In this document: in pieces, positions 17,443-29,949 of the stretch
Layout of the letters: each line of letters opens with the position of its first letter
Numbering within the stretch: the first letter of the stretch is position 1
NCBI RefSeq assembly: GCF_035285525.1
Contig: NZ_JAYKGW010000005.1
Span: 1 to 32,000, forward strand
Reading direction: 5' to 3'
DNA: 32,000 nucleotides
Origin: Okeania sp.
GTDB taxonomy: Bacteria; Cyanobacteriota; Cyanobacteriia; Cyanobacteriales; Microcoleaceae
Notes under the pieces: model-generated
The model's input: the letters and a program-made list of their open reading frames with translations, nothing else
What the model was told of the DNA's origin: nothing
Database searches by the model: none
Made by a program: the position numbers and the translations under genes

Positions 17443-17552
17443 TTACAGCGCTTTTCTTTCTTGATGAACCACCGGAGCCATGACCAAAATATTGTAGGGA
17501 CGTTCCATGGAACGTCCCTACTGTGGTTTACCGTGTCAGAAAACCACTGTCA
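17443..17552. mobile_element. MITE-like element with TTACAGCGCTTTTC-type termini and a central GTAGGGACG...CGTCCCTAC hairpin
   Basis: Shares ttgatgaaccaccggagccat(g/a)accaaaat..gtaggga....cgtccctactgtggttt with 31365-31473 and 31616-31726. Confidence 0.7.
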
Positions 17553-17574: not shown

Positions 17575-19845
17575 TTACATTCCGACTGCATCCCAAGCTG
17601 TACCTAGATTTGCCAGATCAACACTACTGTCTAATGTACCGTCATCATCCATGAACCAAATTTGGTTAGCTCCATTGTTTCCATTGCGCCACAATATATC
17701 TGCTATTCCATCATTATTGTAATCGGCAACTCCAGCGACATCCCAAGCTTTAGTTTGCTTTCCTGGATTAGCTGTATAGCTTGTTTTCCCGTCATCATCC
17801 ATGAACCAAATCTCGTTAGCTCCGGTTTTTCCATTGCGCCAGAGAATGTCTGCTACTCCATCATCATTAAAATCCTCTACTCCAGCGACATCCCAAGCTT
17901 TACTTTGCTTTCCTGGATTAGCTGTATAGCTCTTTTTGCCATCATCATCCATGAACCAAATTTGATTAGCTCCTTTCTTGCCATTTCGCCAGAGAATATC
18001 TGGTACTCCATCATTATTAAAATCCTCTACTCCAGCGACATCCCAAGCTTTACTTTGTTTTCCTGGATTAGCTGTATAGCTCTTTTTCCCGTCATCATCC
18101 ATGAACCAAATCTGGTTAGTTCCTTTCTTGCCATTACGCCAGAGAATGTCTGCTACTCCATCATCATTAAAATCATCAACTCCAGCGACATCCCAAGCTT
18201 TACTTTGTTTTCCTGGATTAGCTGTATAGCTCTTTTTCCCGTCATCATCCATGAACCAAATTTGGTTAGTTCCTTTCTTGCCATTGCGCCAGAGAATGTC
18301 TGCTACTCCATCATTATTAAAATCATCAACTCCAGCGACATCCCAAGCTTTACTTTGCTTTCCTGGATTAGCTGTATCGCTGGTTTCGCCATCATCCAGG
18401 AACCAAATCTCGTTACCTCCGGTTTTTCCATTCCGCCAGAGAATGTCTGCTACTCCATCATCATTAAAATCAAAACGGACTGGTTCGTTACTGACACCGT
18501 TACCGCGAGTTATTGTGCTGCCAAATAAGTCATCGTTGTCTTGGTCATCCCCTGATGCAATGTTGTCTGGAGCAGAACCATTTTTGTCAGCATCAACAGC
18601 ATTATTAGAAGAGAATGTAGTAGCCTCATCAATAGTAACAGTAGGCAGAGAAGTTGGCATTCCTTGGTCGCTACCATCCGGGTTTTCATCAGTGAGTTTC
18701 ATAGCAAATATTGCACCACCGAGACCTTCTCCATTGCTTACACCAGAGCCACCATTTGCCTTATTATTACTCAAGGTACTTTGGGAAATATTTAGACTGC
18801 CGGAACGGATGAATACAGCTCCACCCAGTCCATCGCCACCGGAGCCACCATAGGTAGTGTAGCCACTGGAGTTACCACCATTGCCACCGCCGTAGCCACC
18901 ATAGCCTCCAACGCCAACACCATCGTAGCTACCTGAGCCTCCGAAGCCACCGCCTCCGCCACCACCAAAGCCACCGTCGCCACCGGAACCACTGCCACCG
19001 TAGCCACTGTATTCACCGTAGTAATAGCCGTAGTAGTAGTAACCGTAATAGCTGTAATAGCCGCCGTAATAGCCGAAGTCGTAGCCACCGTAGCCACCAA
19101 AGCCACGGCCTCCGCCACCACCAAAGCCACCGTCGCCACCGTAGCCACTGCCACCGTAGGTGTAGCCACCGTCGCCGATGCCACCCGTACCGTCGCCACC
19201 GTCGCCTCCGAAGCCACCGGAACCACCGAAGCCACTGCCAGCCAAGCCGTAGTAGCCGCCGTAGCTGCTACCTACACCCTTACCACCGTTGCCAAGGAAG
19301 CCACCGTCGCCACCATAGCCATCACCGTAATCACTTATATCATCAGCACCATTATTCTCAGACAACCTCGTAGTAAATATACCGCCACCTACATTGCTAG
19401 CAGTCTCATCACCAGAATTTCCACCTATTGCCTGATTTTTACTAAATTTAACATTATCTACAGAAACATTACCATCATAGATAAATAGGGCACCACCCAT
19501 TCCGGCGCCACCGCCTCCTAGCTTACTGTTTCCCCCCTGTGCTTTACCTTTAGTTAGAGTTAAGTTGTTAATATCCACTGTTCCTGACTTGACGAACAAT
19601 GGACGGTATTTATTGTCACCACTAATAGTAGCTGTTTCCACCTTACCTGTCTTTGGATCGTCCCCTGTTATGGCAATATTACTATCAATGAGTTGAATCA
19701 TTTCACCAGATAATGTGACATTCTTCTTGATAACGATAGTATCGTCCCCTGGGCTGTTATTGGCATCCAAAATTGCTTTACTGAGAGTTCCTTTAGTTTT
19801 TCCTGTACCATTATCTTTGGCTTTTGTTACTTGAAATATAGCCAT
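17575..19845 (-). CDS. Large chimeric repeat protein with an N-terminal PMP-like beta-helix, an internal Gly/Tyr tract and C-terminal FG-GAP/VCBS-type repeats
   Basis: I place the start at MAIFQVTKAKDNGTGK (ATG at 19845, GGAG ending 11 nt upstream of it) rather than at 20145. The start region MAIFQVTKAKDNGTGKTKGTLSKAILDAN and the GGA[LVI]F...F/LSxN units indicate a beta-helix. Six 50-aa D-x-N-x-DG-x-x-DILWRN repeats are FG-GAP/VCBS-like. Confidence 0.85.
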   Translation of the reverse strand: MAIFQVTKAKDNGTGKTKGTLSKAILDANNSPGDDTIVIKKNVTLSGEMIQLIDSNIAITGDDPKTGKVETATISGDNKYRPLFVKSGTVDINNLTLTKGKAQGGNSKLGGGGAGMGGALFIYDGNVSVDNVKFSKNQAIGGNSGDETASNVGGGIFTTRLSENNGADDISDYGDGYGGDGGFLGNGGKGVGSSYGGYYGLAGSGFGGSGGFGGDGGDGTGGIGDGGYTYGGSGYGGDGGFGGGGGRGFGGYGGYDFGYYGGYYSYYGYYYYGYYYGEYSGYGGSGSGGDGGFGGGGGGGFGGSGSYDGVGVGGYGGYGGGNGGNSSGYTTYGGSGGDGLGGAVFIRSGSLNISQSTLSNNKANGGSGVSNGEGLGGAIFAMKLTDENPDGSDQGMPTSLPTVTIDEATTFSSNNAVDADKNGSAPDNIASGDDQDNDDLFGSTITRGNGVSNEPVRFDFNDDGVADILWRNGKTGGNEIWFLDDGETSDTANPGKQSKAWDVAGVDDFNNDGVADILWRNGKKGTNQIWFMDDDGKKSYTANPGKQSKAWDVAGVDDFNDDGVADILWRNGKKGTNQIWFMDDDGKKSYTANPGKQSKAWDVAGVEDFNNDGVPDILWRNGKKGANQIWFMDDDGKKSYTANPGKQSKAWDVAGVEDFNDDGVADILWRNGKTGANEIWFMDDDGKTSYTANPGKQTKAWDVAGVADYNNDGIADILWRNGNNGANQIWFMDDDGTLDSSVDLANLGTAWDAVGM
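17578..18474. repeat. Six tandem 150-bp coding repeats, near-identical at the DNA level
   Basis: The landmark (g/a)tcatcatccatgaaccaaat recurs at 17651, 17801, 17951, 18101 and 18251 (exact 150-bp spacing), with a diverged copy near 18399. Confidence 0.9.
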
Positions 19846-20046
19846 TTGTGTTAATTCTCCTGAGTAATTAATTGTTGTACTTAGGGGGACGTTGAAGGTA
19901 ACGTCTCTAGGGGTTTGGTTTCCCAACCCTACGTTTACGTTCTGAAATTTTACTGATGCTAGGGAAGACCTCTCCCCCAACCCCTCTCCTACTTTTGAGA
20001 GGGGAGCAATCTTCTCTTCTCCCTTCCCTAACTCCCCCCTTTCAAA

Positions 20047-20107
20047 GGGGGGTTGGGGGGGATAGTTGTGGGGTTGTGGGGTTGGGGGGAATAGTTGTAG
20101 GGTTGGG
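20047..20107 (+). other. Cluster of G-runs (G6, G7, G4, G4, G6, G3, G3), candidate G-quadruplex or hairpin region
   Basis: ggggggttgggggggatagttgtggggttgtggggttggggggaatagttgtagggttggg lies immediately 3' of the sulfotransferase stop. It is preceded by the hairpins cccctctc/gagagggg (19981-20004) and cccccc/gggggg (20034-20052). Confidence 0.5.
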
Positions 20108-20110
20108 AGG

Positions 20111-20941
20111 TTAACTCTGAAGTAATCCCGGATAGAACAACTCATAATACCATCGGTAATTACTCCTTAGCTCCGCTTCAATCCGCGGTGACACCCAATG
20201 ACGTTCTGGTGCTTTGACCTGAGTATAAGTACGATGAAGATATTTAAACCGATAGAAACTATCCGCCTCCCCTGGTTGTACTACCAAGTTATTCGGATCG
20301 AGTTCATAATTTCCCACCCCCAACCAAGTAAACAAATCTTTCATTGTTGCTACTGGTTCGGACATTAAATGCTCGAATACCAGAAAATACATTCGTTGTT
20401 GGCAAGATTGGTTCATATCTTGTATCCCTTGCAGCGATCGCAATGGTCCGCCCACCACCCCTTTTTTCCCCAGTAAAGCATCAGCACGTCCGTAGGGAGA
20501 CAGAGAAGCCAAGTCATCTGGGAAATCCAACCATACTGTTTTTTGATGTTGGGTTTCAATAGATGCTAAAATTTGTCCTAACTCCCGGACACACACCACC
20601 ATTTTTACATCTGGGTCTAATTCTAAAGCTAATTCTACTTGATTTAACCAACCCCGATGTTTGTCTACTACCATCTGAGAGTCGATTTCCGACCACCATG
20701 CTTTAGCAAAAGCACGACAAGCACATTGTAATCTTGCATATACAGTTTCAAATTCCCCATCTAACTGAGCCAGAAAAAAATTGTTATCACTCAAATGCGC
20801 CCTAATAGCTTGCAGAGTCGGCAACAGGGGTGAACTCATACCATCACAGTAGATTTCTGGGTGTTCTGCCAGGAGTTGACAGGTTAAAGTTGAGCCTGCG
20901 CGGGGCAAACCCGTGACGCAGACTAATTTTCCGTTAAACAT
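20111..20941 (-). CDS. Sulfotransferase family protein (PAPS-dependent)
   Basis: 276 aa with an N-terminal 5'-PSB P-loop-like motif CVTGLPRAGSTL and a 3'-PB-like VVCVRELGQILAS. Confidence 0.85.
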   Translation of the reverse strand: MFNGKLVCVTGLPRAGSTLTCQLLAEHPEIYCDGMSSPLLPTLQAIRAHLSDNNFFLAQLDGEFETVYARLQCACRAFAKAWWSEIDSQMVVDKHRGWLNQVELALELDPDVKMVVCVRELGQILASIETQHQKTVWLDFPDDLASLSPYGRADALLGKKGVVGGPLRSLQGIQDMNQSCQQRMYFLVFEHLMSEPVATMKDLFTWLGVGNYELDPNNLVVQPGEADSFYRFKYLHRTYTQVKAPERHWVSPRIEAELRSNYRWYYELFYPGLLQS

Positions 20942-21443: not shown

Positions 21444-22244
21444 TTAAACAGAATCCGGATCTAATCCTAACTCTTTTAGTTTAGCAGCCAGACGTTCGGC
21501 AAGTTGACGCTCTTGTTGAGCAATTTGCTGTTGTTGGTCAGCTCGTTGACGCTCTTGTTGAGCAAGTTGCTGTTGTTGGTCAGCCCGTTGATGCTCTCGT
21601 TCGGCAGCGGTTAATACTAAGTTTCCTTGGGAATCATAAAATCTTAACCATACTCCTGACTCTTGCAGAATATTTCCTTCCCAAGTACCTAACCATAACC
21701 CTAATTGATCGCACCACAACCATCCTCGTTCATTAGGTTGTAAATCTTGATATTGCTTATTTTGCAGATGCCATCCCTGTAACGAACTCGGTTCAAATGG
21801 ATTAAAGATAAAATAATTTTGGGTATGGAATGTTCGCTCATAAATATCCTTTTTTTCGCCAATATCTACACTAGCAGTCGAAGGAGACGTGAGTTCAACT
21901 ATCACATCTGGATAACGCCCTTGTTCTTGCCAAACTACCCATCCTTGACGATCTGTTTTGCCATCAACATCCAAGACCACAAAGAAATCAGGGCCTTTGA
22001 AGTCACGATTTTTGGCTTGAGTGCTACTGTAATAAATAAACATATTGCCACCCGCAAAAAAATCGTTACGGTCTGACCAATGTTGATATAATGAATCTAT
22101 CAGAAGATTCATGGCAATACGGTGACGGTTGCTTTCCAAGGTTTCTCCATCATCAAAGATTAAGTCTGTAGGTGGCATCGGTGGTTCCCACTCTGGAGTG
22201 ACCTCGGTGAGTGACTCGGCTTTGGGAGATGTTTCTGTAATCAT
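21444..22244 (-). CDS. Uma2 family (DUF820) putative endonuclease with a C-terminal Q-rich repeat tail
   Basis: 266 aa. PDFFVVLDV...PDVIVELTSPSTASVDIGEKKDIYE...NYFIFNP is the PD-(D/E)xK-like Uma2 core. The tail has two 14-aa repeats, QRADQQQQ(L/I)AQQER, from a 42-bp tandem repeat near 21500-21600. Confidence 0.88.
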   Translation of the reverse strand: MITETSPKAESLTEVTPEWEPPMPPTDLIFDDGETLESNRHRIAMNLLIDSLYQHWSDRNDFFAGGNMFIYYSSTQAKNRDFKGPDFFVVLDVDGKTDRQGWVVWQEQGRYPDVIVELTSPSTASVDIGEKKDIYERTFHTQNYFIFNPFEPSSLQGWHLQNKQYQDLQPNERGWLWCDQLGLWLGTWEGNILQESGVWLRFYDSQGNLVLTAAEREHQRADQQQQLAQQERQRADQQQQIAQQERQLAERLAAKLKELGLDPDSV

Positions 22245-24434: not shown

Positions 24435-27400
24435 ATGGCAATTTTACATAGTTTTTGGCTGACCGAAAATCAACAACCTAGTTCTTTATTTGTTTGGGGA
24501 GAAGCTTGGCAAAAAATCACAGAAGATGATGCTGGTGAAATAGAAAATATTACTAATAATCCTTATGCAATAACTTTGGATGAACTGTTGAAATTATCTG
24601 AGGAAAATACCAATTTCTCTTTGAAAAAGGATAAAAAATCTACAATTAAAACTTTAGCTATTCCTACAAAATTATCAGAATCTAACCAAAAAATATATCC
24701 TATTCATTCTGGCACTAATTTATCAGAAATTTCCGAAAAGTTATATTTTTATCCCTGGCAAATAGAAGGAATTTGTCTAGAACCTCTAGAAGCAATCAAA
24801 TTTTTACAATCTATTCCTTTGGGAAAAACTACTGAATCTTTCATTGGTGGAGATTTAAAGTTTTGGTCTCATGTGGCTCGATGGAGTCTCGATTTATTAG
24901 CAAGATGTAAATTTTTACCTTCTATTGAACAAACATTAAATCAAGAATTTATTGCAACTTGGCAACCTTTACTTGATAGTTCTAAAGACCAAACTAGACT
25001 GAAAAATTTTACTCTACAAATGCCTCTGGTTTGTCGTACATATAACCTTGATTGGCAATCACATCTTTCTCTAGAAAATCTCCAAAATTTACAAATAATT
25101 ACTGAAAATAATTCTGCAAAATTTCCCTTAGTTCAATCTAGTCAAGAAATTATTCAAGATTTCTTAAAAAATATAATAGACACACAAATTCGACAACTAT
25201 CAACCGAAATATCTCTAATAAAAACTACTTCATTACATCCCTCAATTAGACAATGGTTGAAATCCTTATTAGGAAAATCTAGTTTAAAATTACCTGCTAC
25301 CAAAGAAACACAACAAATTAGCAGAATACTTGATAATTGGAAATCTCCTTTACAAGAATTTCAAACTACAGAAAAGAAATTTATTACTTGTTTCCGTCTC
25401 TACTCTCCATCTAATAATTCCCAAAAATGGCAACTCGAATATTGTCTCCAAGCAGTCGATAACCCAGAATTTTTTGTTGATGCGAAAACTATTTGGGAAA
25501 ATCCTGTAGCAAGTTTAAATTATCAAGGAAAAACAATTGAACTTCCTCAAGAAACTCTGCTAAAAGGTTTAGGTTTAGCATCAAGAATTTATCCAATTAT
25601 TGAACCTAGTTTACAAGAAGCAACTCCCCAATATTGTCTACTAACTCCACAACAAGCTTATGAATTTATTAAAAGTGGAAGTTCGCGGTTTACTGACAGT
25701 GGACTGGGGGTAATTTTACCGCCTAGTTTGGCGAACCGAGAAGGATGGGCGTCTCGTTTGGGCCTCAGTATTCAGGCCACTGCTCCAAAAACGAAAAAAA
25801 CTGAAAGACTGGGGTTGAAAAGTCTTCTCAATTTTCAGTGGCAATTATCTATTGGAGGCCAGAAATTAACTAAGGCTGAATTTGACAAATTAGTGGCTAA
25901 GGATAGTCCTTTGGTAGAAGTTAATGGGGAATGGGTGGAACTGCAACCTCAAGATGTCCGAGCAGCACAAAATTTCTTTGCTACTCGTCAAGACCAAATG
26001 GCTTTATCTTTGGAAGATGCTTTACGGTTAGCGACTGGGGATACTCAGACTGTGGAAAAGTTGCCTGTTGTTAATTTTGAAACTGGGGGACAACTTCAGG
26101 AACTTTTGGATACTTTGACTAATAATCGTTCCTTGGAAGAGATTCCTACACCTGAGAATTTTCAGGGCGAACTGCGGGAATATCAAGCACGGGGTGTTAG
26201 TTGGCTAACTTTTCTGGAACGTTGGGGTTTAGGTGCTTGTTTGGCGGATAGCATGGGATTGGGAAAATGCGTATCGCATGATACAGAATTAAATATAAAT
26301 AGTATGGTATTGCAAGCGGAGGAAATTTGGCAAGTTTATGCGGGTGAGGCCGAATTTGATGGGGAAGGGTTTTGGGCAAAACCAAATCGGGAATTATTGG
26401 TAAATTCTCTGGATGAGACAACAGGAAAAATTGTGGTGGCTCCTATTCGGCGGTTATATAGGCAGCAGGTACGAGAAAAGTTACGAAGGGTGAGGTTGAA
26501 AGATAAGAGCAGTATTGTTATTACGAAAAGTCATAAATTATTTATTCGCGATAGTTGGAAAAATGATTTTCAGGTGGGAGATTATGTTTGTGTACCTGCA
26601 AAATTGGTTTGGGATGGGAAAGCACAGGATAAAGATTTAGTCAAATTTCTTGCTTGGCAAATAGCTGAAGGATATGAAGCACCTGATATGAGAGGAGTAG
26701 TTATCTCCCAAAAAAATAAACCACTTTTGGCAGAATTACTAAAGACTCTTGAAAACTTAAGTAAAAGATATGGTATTAAAATAAATCGTCCTGCTATTCG
26801 TCCCTATAGTGATAAAAAAGATTGTTACCAACTTATCATACATAGTGTAGAATATCGGAAATTTTTAGAAGGAAAAGGATATAAGTGGGGGAAGCGATCG
26901 CTTGATAAAACTATTCCTTCATTTATTATGCAAGCTGACTTAGAAAGTATTAGAATTTTTCTCAGGAATTATTTTGATGCGGAAGGTTCGGCAAATAAAA
27001 CTATAGGAAATGTTGAAATTTCTACAGCATCATCTCTACTTATTCAACAATTATCTATCCTACTTAGACGTTTTGGAATTTGGATGACAATATCTCCTAA
27101 ACAAAAACGAGCTACTAATGGTACTGGAATTTTTCGTACTTATTATATTGGTACATTTAGCGGTAACTCAGCACGTCGTTTTTTACAAGAAATAGGATTT
27201 AATCAACTAGAAAAACAAGAAAAACTTAAGTCAATCTGTGATAAAAAAGCTAACTCAAATGTTGAAGGAATCCCTGCTTCGGATATAGTCGCCGAAGTAG
27301 CCAATAAAACTAAACTACCACTGCTACATTTAGGAATACATAGTAAAATTTATATTGACGGTTCCCAAGAATTTTCTCCTGCTAGTTTAGAGAAAGTTAT

Positions 27401-29033
27401 TAACAGTATCGAACATATTATTAGTGGAACTGCGGAAGAAGAATATCGTCAACTTAAACCTTCTAAATGGACGACTAAAACTTTAGAAGCTTATTCTTTA
27501 TTGAATATTTTGGAACTAGAAATTCAGAAAACTCGCCTACAAAAATTACTCAATCAAGAAGTCTATTATTGTCAGATAGAATCTATCGAAGATATAGAAT
27601 ATGAGGGATGGGTTTATGACTTTGAAATAAGTAAACATCATAACTTTGTAGCAAATAATATTCTTTGTCATAACACTATTCAAACTATAGCATTTTTGCT
27701 CAATCAACAAGAAAAAGAAGCACTCGAATCACCCACATTATTAGTTTGCCCTACCTCCGTATTAGGTAACTGGGAAAGAGAAGTAAAAAAATTCGGACCT
27801 ACTTTAAAATTAATAGTTCATCATGGTGATAAACGTGCTAAAGGTAAAGAATTTGCTAAAGCAGTAAAAGACAAACATTTAGTTATAACCAGTTATGCTT
27901 TATTGCATCGAGATGAGAAAATATTACAGACAATAAAATGGCAGTCAGTAATAGTTGATGAAGCGCAAAATATTAAAAATCCAGATGCAAAACAATCTCA
28001 AGCAGTTAGAAAATTAGACGCATCTTTTAGAATGGCTTTAACAGGAACTCCCGTAGAAAATCGTCTTTCAGAACTTTGGTCAATTTTAGATTTTTTGAAT
28101 CCTGGATATTTAGGTCAAAAGCAATTTTTCCAGCGTCGGTTTGCTATTCCTATCGAAAAATATGGAGATACAAATTCATTACAAACTTTGCGTTCTTTAG
28201 TTCAACCTTTCATTTTGCGTCGTCTCAAAACTGACAAAGATATTATTCAAGATTTACCAGAAAAACAAGAAAATACTATCTTTTGCCCTTTAGCAAATGA
28301 ACAAGCAAAACTATATCAAAATATAGTGGAAAATTCTTTAGCAGAAATTGAAGCTGCTGATGGTATTCAACGAAAAGGAAAAATTTTAGCCTTATTAGTA
28401 AAACTGAAACAACTCTGTAATCATCCTGTACTTTTACAAATTAAAAAAGGCAGTAAGAAAAAAGTAGAAATAAGTGATGAAAATTCTGGAAAATTACAAC
28501 GAATAGGAGCAATGTTAGAAGAAATAATGTCTCAAGGAGAACGAGCAATTATCTTTACTCAATTTGCTGAATGGGGAAAAATTTTACAACCTTATTTACA
28601 GAAAATTTTAGGTAGAGAAATATTGTATTTATATGGAGCTACCCGCAAAAATAAAAGAGAAGAAATGGTAGACCAATTTCAATTAGATCCTCAAGGTCCG
28701 CCGATAATGATTTTATCATTAAAAGCTGGAGGAACAGGTTTAAATTTGACTCGTGCAAATCATGTTTTTCACTTTGATAGATGGTGGAATCCGGCAGTAG
28801 AAAATCAGGCAACAGATCGGGTATTTAGAATTGGTCAAACTCGGAATGTTCAGGTACATAAATTTGTTTGTACCGGAACTTTAGAAGAGAAAATACACGA
28901 TATAATTGAAAGTAAAAAAGAGTTGGCAGAGCAAGTTGTTGGTACAGGTGAACAATGGTTAACTGAACTAGATACAGAACAGTTGAGAAATTTATTAATA
29001 TTTGATAGAAATAAAGTAATTGAAGAAGAGTAG
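24435..29033 (+). CDS. SNF2-family helicase/ATPase with an N-terminal bacterial SNF2-associated region, interrupted by an intein
   Basis: 1532-aa ORF. Motif I is split as LADSMGLGK|[intein]|TIQTIAFLL. Motif II is VIVDEAQNIKN and motif III is LTGTPVENRLSELWSILDFLNPG. The helicase-C region reads LSLKAGGTGLNLTRANHVFHFDRWWNPAVENQATDRVFRIGQ. The extein product would be 1063 aa. Confidence 0.95.
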   Translation: MAILHSFWLTENQQPSSLFVWGEAWQKITEDDAGEIENITNNPYAITLDELLKLSEENTNFSLKKDKKSTIKTLAIPTKLSESNQKIYPIHSGTNLSEISEKLYFYPWQIEGICLEPLEAIKFLQSIPLGKTTESFIGGDLKFWSHVARWSLDLLARCKFLPSIEQTLNQEFIATWQPLLDSSKDQTRLKNFTLQMPLVCRTYNLDWQSHLSLENLQNLQIITENNSAKFPLVQSSQEIIQDFLKNIIDTQIRQLSTEISLIKTTSLHPSIRQWLKSLLGKSSLKLPATKETQQISRILDNWKSPLQEFQTTEKKFITCFRLYSPSNNSQKWQLEYCLQAVDNPEFFVDAKTIWENPVASLNYQGKTIELPQETLLKGLGLASRIYPIIEPSLQEATPQYCLLTPQQAYEFIKSGSSRFTDSGLGVILPPSLANREGWASRLGLSIQATAPKTKKTERLGLKSLLNFQWQLSIGGQKLTKAEFDKLVAKDSPLVEVNGEWVELQPQDVRAAQNFFATRQDQMALSLEDALRLATGDTQTVEKLPVVNFETGGQLQELLDTLTNNRSLEEIPTPENFQGELREYQARGVSWLTFLERWGLGACLADSMGLGKCVSHDTELNINSMVLQAEEIWQVYAGEAEFDGEGFWAKPNRELLVNSLDETTGKIVVAPIRRLYRQQVREKLRRVRLKDKSSIVITKSHKLFIRDSWKNDFQVGDYVCVPAKLVWDGKAQDKDLVKFLAWQIAEGYEAPDMRGVVISQKNKPLLAELLKTLENLSKRYGIKINRPAIRPYSDKKDCYQLIIHSVEYRKFLEGKGYKWGKRSLDKTIPSFIMQADLESIRIFLRNYFDAEGSANKTIGNVEISTASSLLIQQLSILLRRFGIWMTISPKQKRATNGTGIFRTYYIGTFSGNSARRFLQEIGFNQLEKQEKLKSICDKKANSNVEGIPASDIVAEVANKTKLPLLHLGIHSKIYIDGSQEFSPASLEKVINSIEHIISGTAEEEYRQLKPSKWTTKTLEAYSLLNILELEIQKTRLQKLLNQEVYYCQIESIEDIEYEGWVYDFEISKHHNFVANNILCHNTIQTIAFLLNQQEKEALESPTLLVCPTSVLGNWEREVKKFGPTLKLIVHHGDKRAKGKEFAKAVKDKHLVITSYALLHRDEKILQTIKWQSVIVDEAQNIKNPDAKQSQAVRKLDASFRMALTGTPVENRLSELWSILDFLNPGYLGQKQFFQRRFAIPIEKYGDTNSLQTLRSLVQPFILRRLKTDKDIIQDLPEKQENTIFCPLANEQAKLYQNIVENSLAEIEAADGIQRKGKILALLVKLKQLCNHPVLLQIKKGSKKKVEISDENSGKLQRIGAMLEEIMSQGERAIIFTQFAEWGKILQPYLQKILGREILYLYGATRKNKREEMVDQFQLDPQGPPIMILSLKAGGTGLNLTRANHVFHFDRWWNPAVENQATDRVFRIGQTRNVQVHKFVCTGTLEEKIHDIIESKKELAEQVVGTGEQWLTELDTEQLRNLLIFDRNKVIEEE
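26268..27674 (+). mobile_element. Full-length class 1 intein (469 aa) with a LAGLIDADG homing-endonuclease domain
   Basis: Starts at Cys612 (CVSHDTEL, block A). Block B is VITKSHKL (TxxH). The two dodecapeptide motifs are FLAWQIAEGY and FLRNYFDAEGS. Block F is GWVYDFEISKHHNFVANN. It ends ILCHN (1080) followed by Thr+1. Removal restores GLGKTIQ. Confidence 0.9.
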
Positions 29034-29088: not shown

Positions 29089-29949
29089 ATGAACTTACAA
29101 AGTGACAAAGAATGGTGGACTCAACAATGGATAGACTTGTTAAATTCTTATCGCTTTAAAAAACGATTAGAAAGAGCCAGAAATTATGCCAGACAAGGTA
29201 ATGTTTTGAGTCTAAAATTTAAAGAACAAAGAATTATTGCTCAAGTTCAAGGAACAGCACCCGAACCATACAAACTATCTTTATGGTTAGATACTTTCTC
29301 TGATGAAGATTGGAATTATATCATTCAAACTTTGTCAGAAAGAGCAATTTTTACTGCCAAATTATTAGCAGGAGAAATGCCTCAAAATATAGAAGAAGTT
29401 TTTGCTGCTAATGGTTTAAGATTATTTCCTTTTACCTTAGAAGAAATTCATTCTCGATGTGATTGCCCAGACAAAGCTAGAGTTTGTAAACATATCGCAG
29501 CAGTATATTATTTATTAGGCGATCGCTTCAGTGACGACCCATTTTTATTATTTCAATTACGGGGTCGTACCCAAGAAAAAATATTAGCAGAACTTCGTCA
29601 AAAACGTGGTCAAAGTGAATATGAAAAAGCCACAGAAACGGAACAAATAAAATCTGAAAAAACTCAAGAACAGCAATCAGTTACTAACTCAATATATGCA
29701 ACTTCAGTTATTCCAGAAAATATAAAACTTGAGCAAATATGGGAATATAATCAACAATTAGATTCTTCCTTAATAGTAATTACACCATCTCCAAGTAATG
29801 AAACAATTTTAGATGTTTTAGGAAAAATTTCTTTAGGTGCATCGACTGATATTGTTATGGATTATTTCCAGAAAATTTATCAAAATATTAGTCAACAAGC
29901 AGTCATAACTGCATTAAAACAGGGAGAAGATGAGGGTGATAATGCATAA
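29089..29949 (+). CDS. SWIM zinc-finger protein
   Basis: 286 aa. CDCPDKARVCKHIAAVYYLL is the SWIM CxCx(n)CxH signature. The gene starts 55 nt downstream of the SNF2 gene on the same strand. Confidence 0.85.
   Translation: MNLQSDKEWWTQQWIDLLNSYRFKKRLERARNYARQGNVLSLKFKEQRIIAQVQGTAPEPYKLSLWLDTFSDEDWNYIIQTLSERAIFTAKLLAGEMPQNIEEVFAANGLRLFPFTLEEIHSRCDCPDKARVCKHIAAVYYLLGDRFSDDPFLLFQLRGRTQEKILAELRQKRGQSEYEKATETEQIKSEKTQEQQSVTNSIYATSVIPENIKLEQIWEYNQQLDSSLIVITPSPSNETILDVLGKISLGASTDIVMDYFQKIYQNISQQAVITALKQGEDEGDNA

What the first reader, a model, noticed from the sequence alone, without database searches (positions are those of the whole stretch)
17575..19845. Chimeric protein with an extreme Gly/Tyr low-complexity tract inserted in a beta-helix, followed by FG-GAP repeats
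Between two PMP-like beta-helix units (GGALFIYDGNVSVDNVKFSKNQA and GGAVFIRSGSLNISQSTLSNNKA) lies a tract of about 170 aa (nt about 18820-19335). It is made almost only of G, Y, D, S and F, and includes GFGGYGGYDFGYYGGYYSYYGYYYYGYYYGEYSGYGGSGSGGDGGFGGGGGGGFGG. Runs such as YYGYYYYGYYYG are very unusual for a bacterial protein. They recall eukaryotic Gly/Tyr structural or phase-separating proteins that can be cross-linked through tyrosines. The C-terminus is a six-unit D-x-N-x-DG calcium-type FG-GAP/VCBS array. No classical signal peptide is visible at the MAIFQV start. Export, if it occurs, would therefore need another route. The tract is locally much more GC-rich than its surroundings.
Basis: seen in the sequence. 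Interest (0 to 1): 0.65.

Follow-up and report, generated by a model that had tools for sequence, protein, structure and literature searches.

The report
Gly/Tyr-rich exoprotein paired with sulfotransferase
The glycine/tyrosine tract is real, but it is the normal glycine-rich core of a widespread, unnamed bacterial surface-protein module with one extra tyrosine-rich expansion, and this module's gene almost always sits beside a tyrosine-sulfotransferase-like gene, which suggests a sulfated secreted protein.

Summary
One intact 756-aa gene (17575-19845, minus strand) carries a 170-aa tract (aa 171-340) that is 52% Gly with 30 Tyr, followed by six FG-GAP repeats. The "chimeric insertion" reading is only partly right. 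A Gly-rich tract of 66-218 aa (about 49% Gly) occurs in all 128 homologous module copies I examined, in cyanobacteria and gammaproteobacteria. It contains conserved GGxGGFGGGGG motifs, and AlphaFold2 models it confidently as part of a beta-helix-like solenoid. Only the 31-aa Tyr run (aa 252-282, 17 Tyr) is peculiar to this gene. It lies in a variable linker where relatives carry (GGI)n or (GGF)n runs, so it looks like a slippage expansion. The module has no Pfam, NCBIfam or PDB relative.

The new finding is the upstream gene (20111-20941), a cytoplasmic PF13469 sulfotransferase. Its only close solved relatives are tyrosylprotein sulfotransferases. A homolog lies on the same strand next to the module gene in 55 of 79 species-level loci, and it is the only recurrent neighbour. 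My best reading is a secreted adhesin or matrix protein that this enzyme sulfates. Tyr O-sulfation is plausible but unproven. The nearest relatives are Okeania, not Nostocales.

The parts
20111..20941 (-). Sulfotransferase gene (276 aa, PF13469 Sulfotransfer_3), with no signal peptide. It is the conserved partner of the module gene.
   Evidence: Pfam E 1.2e-13. 5'-PSB GLPRAGST and 3'-PB R119...S127 are invariant across 46 homologs. The family profile hits only TPST1/2 strongly in the PDB (E 6.5e-10 to 9e-8, next best 2.8e-4). The top 13 Foldseek hits for the AF2 model (pLDDT 91) are all tyrosylprotein sulfotransferases. A homolog lies next to the module gene in 55/79 loci.
19846..20110 (-). 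Intergenic spacer of 265 nt with G/C-rich 29-nt tandem repeats and a GGAG ribosome-binding site. Co-transcription with the sulfotransferase gene is possible.
   Evidence: Sequence; tandem repeat at 20047-20112; no terminator-like site on the minus strand within this spacer.
17575..19845 (-). The whole gene: 756 aa plus stop. An N-terminal Gly-rich beta-helix-like module followed by an FG-GAP propeller.
19336..19845 (-). aa 1-170: N-terminal cap and first solenoid rungs (FxVT...GTLSxAIxxAN...GDDTI...RPLF...GGGGAGMGGALFIYDG).
   Evidence: pLDDT 90-99. phmmer against 1.84 billion representatives gives 339 clusters at E<=1e-10. No Pfam or NCBIfam hit.
18826..19335 (-). aa 171-340: Gly-rich tract (52% Gly, 30 Tyr) with GGxGGF motifs at F183, F212, F241 and F293. 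It is a conserved family feature.
   Evidence: pLDDT is 73-93 outside aa 251-280.
19000..19092 (-). aa 252-282: Tyr run (17 Tyr in 31 residues). A lineage-specific expansion between GGFGGGGG motifs 2 and 3.
   Evidence: Absent from P0001, P0002 and P0003 in the alignment. 80-90% of homologs have gaps at these columns. pLDDT 45-65. Short imperfect tandem DNA periods of 9-45 nt. Relatives carry (GGI)n or (GGF)n runs in their tracts.
18481..18825 (-). aa 341-455: C-terminal rungs of the module (GGAVFIRSG, GLGGAIFAM, DQGMPTSLPTVT) and an acidic linker.
   Evidence: Conserved columns; pLDDT up to 97 for aa 341-380, 69-90 for aa 381-450 and about 50 at the end.
17578..18480 (-). aa 456-756: six FG-GAP/VCBS repeats of 50 aa, each with D-x-N-x-D-G. 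Probably a calcium-binding beta-propeller.
   Evidence: PF13517 E 3e-25 and PF01839 E 6e-23, six stretches each. 150-nt tandem array at 90% identity.
17494..17521 (.). Perfect 12-bp palindromic hairpin about 55 nt after the stop codon. Possibly a terminator or a cyanobacterial palindromic element.

Best explanation
The gene encodes a secreted or cell-surface protein with two parts. The first is an N-terminal module of about 450 aa belonging to a widespread but unnamed family. It has a capped, right-handed-beta-helix-like solenoid whose middle rungs are built almost entirely of glycine, with one aromatic residue per GGxGGFGGGGG motif spaced about 23-29 residues apart. The second is a six-repeat calcium-type FG-GAP propeller that probably binds a ligand.

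Shown: the Gly-rich tract is an integral, conserved part of the module. The Tyr run (aa 252-282) is a lineage-specific expansion of about one repeat length in a hypervariable linker of that solenoid.

Inferred: the run arose by replication slippage of GGY/TAY codon units, just as relatives have expanded GGI or GGF.

Shown: the module gene forms a conserved two-gene cassette with a cytoplasmic sulfotransferase whose closest characterised relatives are protein-tyrosine sulfotransferases.

Inferred: the enzyme uses PAPS to sulfate the module protein in the cytoplasm before export, as RaxST does for RaxX. Tyr residues in or beside the extended Gly-rich tract, such as D172-Y173, are the most likely acceptors. 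The Tyr run would then multiply the potential sulfation, adhesion or cross-linking sites and give a polyanionic, aromatic surface patch.

Inferred: in this signal-less cyanobacterial copy, export uses a non-Sec route, possibly type I-like. Gammaproteobacterial copies use Sec.
For: Family-wide tract: 128 module copies have 49+-7% Gly and a median tract length of 131 aa (range 66-218). The query is typical for Gly (48%) and an outlier only for Tyr (16% versus 4.7+-2.6%). Conserved internal motifs appear.

Structure: AF2 gives pLDDT 86.8 and pTM 0.87, with the tract mostly at 73-93 and only aa 251-280 low. Foldseek's weak matches are all right-handed beta-helices.

Expansion: one search shows the insertion relative to P0001-P0003. 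One search shows other GGX homorepeats in relatives. One search shows short imperfect tandem DNA periods in the tract.

Cassette: a sulfotransferase homolog is present in 55/79 species-level loci, always on the same strand and almost always immediately flanking the module gene. It is the only recurrent neighbour. The reciprocal check held for 2 of 2 sulfotransferase-anchored loci. Pairwise identities of the sulfotransferase and the module cap correlate at r=0.61, with 0 of 2000 Mantel permutations reaching that value.

TPST likeness. PAPS motifs are invariant. No sulfotransferase copy has a signal peptide.

Extracytoplasmic fate: gammaproteobacterial homologs carry Sec signal peptides, and other family members carry RTX, cadherin or Calx-beta domains.

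Literature: raxST homologues of unknown substrate exist in cyanobacteria and proteobacteria (PMC6637879). [quoted passage not shown]
Against: There are no biochemical data.

The TPST catalytic base (Glu99 of TPST2) aligns with an invariant Ser in this sulfotransferase family, and the neighbouring residue is Met in the window's enzyme.

Tyr content of the tract does not differ between sulfotransferase-linked and unlinked module copies.

No Tyr within the tract is universally conserved. The two best-conserved Tyr (GGYGGnGnY, about 80%) are Phe183 and Lys189 in this protein.

24 of 79 loci lack an adjacent sulfotransferase, although many of these are short contigs or paralogs.

In gammaproteobacteria a cytoplasmic enzyme would have to act before Sec export.

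I did not test whether this enzyme falls in the RaxST clade.

The export route is unknown. The protein has no RTX repeats and the window has no secretion genes.
Confidence: 0.55

Rival explanations
1. The sulfotransferase and the module act together on a sulfated polysaccharide. The enzyme sulfates an exopolysaccharide or glycolipid, and the beta-helix module binds, cleaves or epimerises it. The protein itself is not sulfated, and the Gly/Tyr tract is simply a structural solenoid.
For: Right-handed beta-helices are typical polysaccharide lyases and binders. The weak Foldseek matches include PL6 chondroitinase B and alginate lyases, GH82 iota-carrageenase and VexL. Cyanobacteria make sulfated exopolysaccharides (general knowledge). 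PF13469 is a broad family, and the TPST catalytic Glu is not conserved.
Against: No glycosyltransferase, polysaccharide-export gene or any other gene family recurs around the pair. The module's invariant residues are Gly, Ala, Phe and Val plus one Arg, with no conserved acidic or basic cluster of the lyase type. By both profile and fold the sulfotransferase is closer to TPSTs than to heparan-sulfate or other glycan sulfotransferases, by 2 to 5 orders of magnitude in E-value.
Confidence: 0.2
2. The Gly/Tyr tract is a functionally distinct low-complexity domain, analogous to eukaryotic Gly/Tyr structural or phase-separating proteins. It works through dityrosine cross-linking or aromatic stickiness in the sheath or matrix, independent of sulfation.
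For: The tract has an extreme Tyr density, 17 of 31 residues. AF2 confidence is low there, which fits a flexible loop. The tract uses a distinct GGC/GGT/TAC codon set, as seen in highly repetitive structural proteins. The protein is probably extracellular.
Against: The run is absent from the three closest homologs and from all 128 other tracts. No related gene carrying this run was found in 241 million metagenome records; the scan's single hit was an unrelated contig. So there is no sign that the run itself is under selection. Relatives put Ile or Phe in their equivalent repeats. The surrounding Gly-rich region is ordered and conserved rather than an inserted foreign domain.
Confidence: 0.15
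3. The Tyr run is an assembly or sequencing artefact, such as a collapsed or expanded short repeat, or the gene is a decaying pseudogene.
For: The region is a short-period, imperfect tandem repeat, which is prone to misassembly. This exact protein is not on record elsewhere, and no independent assembly carries the run.
Against: The 756-codon frame is intact, and the conserved motifs on both sides remain in frame and in register with homologs. The repeats are imperfect (61-87% matches), unlike a polymerase or assembler stutter. The closest homolog P0003 comes from an independent assembly and is also Tyr-rich (15%) in the same tract.
Confidence: 0.05

Closest known systems
RaxST-RaxX tyrosine-sulfation system of Xanthomonas (bacterial TPST plus secreted substrate)
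   Same: A cytoplasmic, unanchored TPST-like PF13469 sulfotransferase is encoded next to, and on the same strand as, a gene for an exported protein. PAPS-binding motifs are present. Liu et al. 2019 (PMC6637879) noted raxST homologues of unknown substrate in cyanobacteria and proteobacteria.
   Different: The partner is a multidomain protein of 500 to over 2000 aa with a Gly-rich beta-helix module, not a 60-aa RiPP-like peptide. No raxA/raxB-type peptidase-ABC exporter lies nearby. TPST's catalytic Glu is replaced. Sulfation is not demonstrated, and relatedness to RaxST itself was not tested.
Metazoan tyrosylprotein sulfotransferases TPST1/TPST2 (PDB 5WRI, 3AP1)
   Same: These are the best structural and profile matches of the neighbouring enzyme (Foldseek E 2e-10 and TM about 0.56; profile E 6.5e-10). 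The 5'-PSB and 3'-PB motifs are shared. Asp-Tyr acceptor-like sites exist in the tract (D172-Y173).
   Different: Identity is only about 20% over about 210 residues. There is no membrane anchor. Glu99 is not conserved, and the C-terminal third is unrelated.
FG-GAP / VCBS repeat beta-propellers (integrin-alpha-like; PF01839, PF13517)
   Same: The C-terminal 300 aa match both Pfam models above their cut-offs, with six DxNxDG calcium-type loops.
   Different: There are six near-identical 50-aa repeats (90% DNA identity) rather than the seven diverged blades of integrins. The ligand is unknown.
Right-handed parallel beta-helix proteins with GGA(I/L/V)...FxxN rungs (chlamydial Pmp repeats, pectate-lyase-like fold)
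   Same: The GGALFIYDG...FSKNQA and GGAVFIRSG...LSNNKA rungs resemble Pmp-type repeats. The AF2 model is a capped solenoid, and the only fold matches are beta-helices.
   Different: No Pfam beta-helix or Chlam_PMP model matches (E>1). Foldseek against the PDB is not significant (best E 0.075). The glycine-only middle rungs with GGxGGFGGGGG motifs have no solved counterpart.
Gly/Tyr- or GGX-rich structural proteins (hair high-Gly/Tyr keratin-associated proteins, plant glycine-rich proteins, spider-silk GGX, polyglycine-II bundles such as snow-flea antifreeze and phage gp38)
   Same: The composition is similar (GGX, GGY, YYG). The side chain at X is aromatic or hydrophobic. The tract may adopt extended, non-alpha, non-classical-beta conformations: DSSP assigns almost no secondary structure despite high pLDDT. 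gp38 appears among the weak Foldseek hits.
   Different: There is no sequence homology. Here the tract is embedded in a conserved bacterial module with fixed motifs. I had no model coordinates, so I could not test for a PGII conformation.

Membership tests
FG-GAP / VCBS repeat family | Match to PF01839/PF13517 above the gathering score | tested here: met
   PF13517 89 bits (cut-off 26.9) and PF01839 80.7 bits (cut-off 22.1), six stretches each.
FG-GAP / VCBS repeat family | Calcium-binding DxNxDG-type loop in each repeat | tested here: met
   (D/E/A)(F/Y)N(D/N)DG is present in all six repeats, aa 459-712.
Chlamydial polymorphic membrane protein (Pmp) repeats | Match to Pfam Chlam_PMP (PF02415), that is, tandem GGA(I/L/V) plus FxxN repeats recognised by the model | tested here: not met
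   hmmscan at E<=1 lists no Chlam_PMP or any beta-helix family. Only isolated GGAL/GGAV...N motifs can be seen by eye.
Right-handed parallel beta-helix fold | Significant structural similarity of a confident model to solved beta-helix proteins | tested here: inconclusive
   The model has pLDDT 86.8. The best PDB hit has E 0.075 and TM below 0.2, though all hits are beta-helices. BFVD's best hit is a 'Right handed beta helix domain-containing protein' at E 4e-7 but TM 0.23.
RTX / type I secretion substrates | GGxGxD nonapeptide repeats (PF00353) near the C-terminus | tested here: not met
   The query has no PF00353 hit. Many other proteins carrying the same module do have it.
RTX / type I secretion substrates | A C-terminal secretion signal recognised by a cognate ABC/MFP/OMP system | not testable with these tools
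   The window has no T1SS genes, and the signal has no sequence model.
TPST/RaxST-type protein tyrosine sulfation system | Sulfotransferase with 5'-PSB and 3'-PB PAPS-binding motifs | tested here: met
   GLPRxGST and R119...S127 are invariant in 46 sequences and align to the TPST motifs.
TPST/RaxST-type protein tyrosine sulfation system | The enzyme is specifically related to tyrosylprotein sulfotransferases rather than to glycan or small-molecule sulfotransferases | tested here: met
   Profile against the PDB: TPST1/2 and tick TPST at E 6.5e-10 to 9e-8, next best Stf9 at 2.8e-4. The top 13 Foldseek hits are all TPSTs. The margin over CurM ST in Foldseek is small (7e-9 versus 8e-9).
TPST/RaxST-type protein tyrosine sulfotation system | Catalytic base equivalent to TPST2 Glu99 | tested here: not met
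   HMMER alignments place the GEET of TPST opposite G(H/M)SS. The Glu99 position is an invariant Ser36. This rests on sequence alignment only, and a base could lie elsewhere.
TPST/RaxST-type protein tyrosine sulfation system | An adjacent gene encodes an exported substrate with acceptor Tyr, typically with Asp at position -1 | tested here: inconclusive
   Adjacency is conserved in 55/79 loci, and D172-Y173 and E278-Y279 are present. However, no tract Tyr is universal, and Tyr content does not track sulfotransferase linkage.
TPST/RaxST-type protein tyrosine sulfation system | Demonstrated sulfotyrosine on the substrate | not testable with these tools
   This needs mass spectrometry or a 35S-PAPS assay.
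Unnamed Gly-rich beta-helix module family (annotated as 'calcium-binding', 'DUF4347-containing' or 'beta strand repeat-containing' proteins) | The ordered motifs FxVT..GTLSxAI..AN..DTI, RPLF..SGTV, GGGAGMGGxLFIYDG, two or more GGxGGFGGGGG, GGAGxGGAIFxRSG, GLGGAIF and NGNxQGMPxxLPxVT | tested here: met
   All are present and in order in the query.

The most novel reading that the evidence does not exclude
The window samples an undescribed, laterally mobile protein-sulfation cassette. A cytoplasmic TPST-like enzyme sulfates tyrosines on the glycine-rich rungs of a dedicated beta-helix exoprotein module. The cassette is found across filamentous cyanobacteria, large sulfur bacteria and Marinicella. 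It would be the first family of large bacterial sulfoproteins and would supply the missing substrates of the 'orphan raxST homologues'. In this gene the 17-Tyr run would form a poly-sulfotyrosine, strongly anionic and adhesive patch.
Probability: 0.3. Interest if true: 0.8.

Novelty: new variant of a known kind. Interest (0 to 1): 0.55.

Why it matters
In bacteria, protein tyrosine sulfation is established only for RaxST/RaxX in Xanthomonas. Homologous enzymes elsewhere have no known substrates (PMC6637879, PMC9372746). A two-gene cassette conserved in more than 50 species gives a concrete candidate substrate family that can be tested directly. It also points to sulfated surface proteins in ecologically important mat- and bloom-forming cyanobacteria and in giant sulfur bacteria.

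Separately, the module is a sizeable family with no Pfam or PDB representation: 339 clusters at 50% identity with E<=1e-10. Its predicted glycine-only solenoid rungs would be a new structural theme.

The Tyr run itself is probably a slippage expansion of limited significance. That changes only if sulfation or cross-linking is shown.

Tried and rejected
1. Pfam and NCBIfam scans of the whole protein found nothing for aa 1-455: no PMP, beta-helix, CSLREA or choice-of-anchor model.

2. A PDB profile search with alignment A1 hit only RTX proteins. The cause was the C-terminal tails of other family members, not the module, so I discarded it.

3. Foldseek of the module model against the PDB gave no significant match. 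BFVD gave one beta-helix hit with a poor TM-score.

4. I tested whether Tyr content, or Tyr flanked by acidic residues, is higher in sulfotransferase-linked module copies. It is not (Mann-Whitney p=0.07, and the trend runs the other way).

5. I looked for a hydroxyl residue that is conserved only in sulfotransferase-linked copies. There is none. T20, S22, S55, S87 and Y123 are conserved in both sets.

6. I looked for an independent assembly of the Tyr run. This exact protein is not on record. A degenerate DNA pattern scan of JGI metagenomes returned one unrelated AT-rich contig.

7. I looked for secretion-system or glycan-synthesis genes. None is in the window and none recurs across the 79 loci.

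8. I tried to place the sulfotransferase relative to RaxST. No RaxST sequence was available in the tools, and a search for genus names in the supplements of PMC6637879 found nothing.

9. Literature searches for this module, or for a Gly-rich or PGII cyanobacterial protein linked to a sulfotransferase, found no description.

Full report
**1. The observation**

The finding's coordinates hold one intact minus-strand gene. The longest ORF runs from 17575 to 20145. Its first 100 codons are translated intergenic repeat, including a 29-nt G/C-rich tandem at 20047-20112. The closest homologs all begin MAxF(E/R)V, and a GGAG lies upstream of the ATG at 19845.

Residues 171-340 (nt 18826-19335) contain 88 Gly and 30 Tyr. 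Residues 252-282 contain 17 Tyr in 31 positions. GC rises to 0.57-0.66 across the tract, against about 0.40-0.45 in the flanks. Half of that rise follows from Gly codons. The other half comes from a codon switch to GGC/GGT/TAC, with GC3 0.565 versus 0.307.

Pfam finds six FG-GAP/FG-GAP_3 repeats (E 3e-25) with DxNxDG loops. They are encoded by a 150-nt tandem array at 90% identity. The N-terminus has no signal peptide.

**2. The tract is not an insertion into a chimera**

A database search found 495 relatives. The two best are tandem paralogs in Okeania sp. KiyG1. Hundreds of others are cyanobacterial proteins annotated as calcium-binding, DUF4347-containing, Ig-like or Calx-beta proteins, or multi-copy proteins of Marinicella and other gammaproteobacteria. 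They share only the N-terminal 450 aa or so.

All of them have the same ordered motifs: FxVT..GTLSxAI..AN..DTI, RPLF..SGTV, GGGAGMGGxLFIYDG, a Gly-rich stretch, GGAGxGGAIFxRSG, GLGGAIF and NGNNQGMPxxLPxVT. In 128 module copies the Gly-rich stretch is 66-218 aa long (median 131) and 49+-7% Gly. The query, at 48% Gly and 190 aa by the same delimiters, is ordinary in this respect.

The stretch is not featureless. It contains a GGYGGnGnY motif and three or four GGxGGFGGGGG motifs. In the query these motifs sit at F183, F212, F241 and F293, so the spacing is 29, 29 and 52 residues.

AlphaFold2, run with a 49-sequence alignment, gives pLDDT 86.8 and pTM 0.87. Most of the tract scores 73-93, and only residues 251-280 score low (45-65). 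DSSP assigns almost no regular secondary structure to the tract apart from short bridges every 14-15 residues. Together with the 23-29-residue motif spacing, this fits glycine-built rungs that continue the flanking beta-helix. I had no coordinates, so I could not exclude a polyglycine-II-like arrangement.

Foldseek finds nothing significant in the PDB. The best hit is E 0.075, and all candidates are right-handed beta-helices. BFVD gives one beta-helix protein (E 4e-7, TM 0.23). Neither Pfam nor NCBIfam covers residues 1-455.

The 170-aa cap alone finds 339 clusters (at 50% identity) with E<=1e-10 among 1.84 billion representatives. The module is thus a real, moderately large family that has no name.

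**3. What is unusual: the tyrosine run**

Tyr makes up 16% of the query tract, against 4.7+-2.6% in the others. The query has 13 Tyr in its richest 20-residue window, against a maximum of 6 elsewhere.

When the query is aligned with its three closest homologs, residues of about 250-282 appear as an insertion between GGFGGGGG motifs 2 and 3. At these columns 80-90% of all homologs have gaps. The motif spacing there is 52 residues, against 23-25 in the closest homologs, so the insertion is about one repeat length.

The DNA shows imperfect short tandem periods of 9-45 nt. Close relatives carry other homorepeats in their tracts: (GGI)n in a Microcoleaceae MAG, and (GGF)n and (GEGGEA)n in Capilliphycus. 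The simplest reading is slippage-driven expansion of GGX units in a tolerant linker, with X an aromatic or hydrophobic residue.

This exact protein is not on record elsewhere. A degenerate DNA pattern for YYGYYYYGYYYG found only one unrelated contig in 241 million metagenome records. The run is therefore a singleton. Its reality rests on the intact frame, the in-register flanking motifs and the imperfect repeats. P0003, the closest homolog from an independent assembly, is also Tyr-rich (15%) but lacks the insertion.

**4. The neighbouring gene**

The gene immediately upstream on the same strand (20111-20941, 265 nt away) is a 276-aa PF13469 sulfotransferase.

I scanned one genome per species for the module and obtained 79 loci. 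Using tblastn and jackhmmer on their ORFs, I found a homolog of this enzyme in 55 loci. It was always on the same strand as the module gene and almost always directly upstream or directly downstream. Twenty-four of these homologs share 48-92% identity with the window's enzyme. They come from cyanobacteria and also from Marinicella, Thioploca, Thiolinea, Marithrix, Thiodictyon and Competibacteraceae. About 30 belong to a second subfamily at about 25% identity, found in Microcoleus and Nostoc.

All-against-all clustering of the loci's ORFs showed that the sulfotransferase is the only gene family that recurs with the module. Two further loci, chosen by starting from the sulfotransferase, also carry a module gene 114-130 nt downstream. 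Pairwise identities of the enzyme and of the module cap correlate at r=0.61, and none of 2000 Mantel permutations reached that value. The pair is therefore inherited and transferred as a unit.

**5. The kind of sulfotransferase**

The 5'-PSB (GLPRxGST) and 3'-PB (R119...S127) PAPS-binding motifs are invariant in 46 homologs. A family profile hits only tyrosylprotein sulfotransferases strongly in the PDB (E 6.5e-10 to 9e-8). The next best hit is mycobacterial Stf9 at 2.8e-4.

The AF2 model of the enzyme has pLDDT 91.2. Its top 13 Foldseek matches are human TPST1, human TPST2 and tick TPST (E 2e-10 to 7e-9, TM about 0.56). The CurM sulfotransferase (8e-9) and heparan sulfate 3-O-sulfotransferases (3e-7) come next.

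All copies begin within about 25 residues of the PSB loop, so they are cytoplasmic.

Two papers fit this picture. Liu et al. 2019 report raxST homologues without raxX, and of unknown substrate, in cyanobacteria and proteobacteria (PMC6637879). [quoted passage not shown] **6. Cautions**

- The catalytic Glu99 of TPST2 aligns with an invariant Ser in this family.
- Tyr content of the tract does not differ between linked and unlinked copies.
- No tract Tyr is universal. The two best-conserved Tyr are Phe183 and Lys189 in this protein.
- Twenty-four loci have no adjacent enzyme, although many are short contigs or extra paralogs.
- I could not compare the enzyme with RaxST itself.

That the enzyme and the module are functionally coupled is well supported. 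That the protein is the acceptor is likely. That tyrosine is the acceptor is plausible only. D172-Y173 and E278-Y279 match the acidic -1 preference of TPSTs.

The main rival is joint action on a sulfated polysaccharide. Three points weigh against it: no glycan-synthesis genes recur near the pair, the module lacks lyase-like conserved charged residues, and the enzyme is closer to TPSTs than to glycan sulfotransferases.

**7. Location and export**

Gammaproteobacterial homologs put a Sec signal peptide directly before the FxVT start. Other members carry RTX, cadherin, Calx-beta and FG-GAP domains. The module is therefore extracytoplasmic.

This copy has no signal peptide and no RTX repeats. The window holds only housekeeping genes and no secretion genes: pnp, MgtE, VKOR, pirin, Ap4A phosphorylase, an intein-bearing SNF2 helicase, Uma2 and DUF928. 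The export route remains unknown.

**8. Verdict**

The feature is real, but its interpretation changes. It is not a chimera carrying a eukaryote-like insert. It is a member of an unnamed Gly-rich beta-helix exoprotein family with a private Tyr/Gly expansion. Its gene belongs to a conserved cassette with a TPST-like sulfotransferase. The Tyr run alone is of modest interest. The cassette is the part worth following up experimentally.

Noticed in passing
window 24435-29033 (+): A 1532-aa SNF2-family helicase (DUF3670, SNF2-rel_dom, Helicase_C) is interrupted by an intein with a LAGLIDADG homing-endonuclease domain. A SWIM zinc-finger protein follows at 29089-29949.
   Followed up: no
window 19846-20145: The intergenic region carries a 29-nt G/C-rich tandem repeat (20047-20112, 2.3 copies). 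Its translation (PPTPQPHNYPPQPP...GEGLGERS) extends the longest ORF 100 codons beyond the true start and makes it overlap the sulfotransferase gene.
   Followed up: partly
window 17494-17521: A perfect 12-bp-stem palindrome (GTAGGGACGTTCCATGGAACGTCCCTAC) lies between the gene's stop codon and pnp. It scores as terminator-like on both strands.
   Followed up: no
window 17639-18472: The FG-GAP array is a 150-nt tandem repeat of 5.6 copies at 90% DNA identity with no indels. This implies recent duplication or concerted evolution of the propeller blades.
   Followed up: no
L004 9971-11995; L008 9980-16540: Close relatives carry different homorepeats within their Gly-rich tracts: (GGI)n in a Microcoleaceae MAG, and (GGF)n and (GEGGEA)n in Capilliphycus salinus. 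The linkers are generally hypervariable GGX microsatellites.
   Followed up: partly
L019, L047, L072, L074 and others: The module, and often the sulfotransferase cassette, is shared between filamentous cyanobacteria and large sulfur bacteria (Thiomargarita, Thioploca, Marithrix, Parabeggiatoa, Thiolinea), and also occurs in Marinicella and Thiodictyon. This pattern suggests lateral transfer among surface-associated or filamentous bacteria.
   Followed up: partly
L001/L002 (Okeania sp. KiyG1, BLZO01000142): In Okeania sp. KiyG1 the locus holds the sulfotransferase, a 121-aa ORF and then two tandem paralogs of the module-FG-GAP gene (775 and 727 aa). The window has a single copy. IS605/TnpB elements flank that locus.
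   Followed up: no
L081 (JGI Ga0654500_0000613): One metagenomic contig carries at least seven tandem genes on the same strand. Five of them have FG-GAP Pfam hits, some also have DUF4347, and one is P0007, whose tract lacks Tyr entirely. There is no sulfotransferase within 6 kb.
   Followed up: no
window 21444-22244 (-): A Uma2-family putative endonuclease has a C-terminal Gln-rich repeat (QRADQQQQLAQQERQRADQQQQIAQQERQ).
   Followed up: no
L085 2321-2355: The only metagenome match to the TAY/GGN pattern of the Tyr run is an AT-rich contig with Cys-rich EGF-like ORFs, probably eukaryotic. It is unrelated to the gene.
   Followed up: yes
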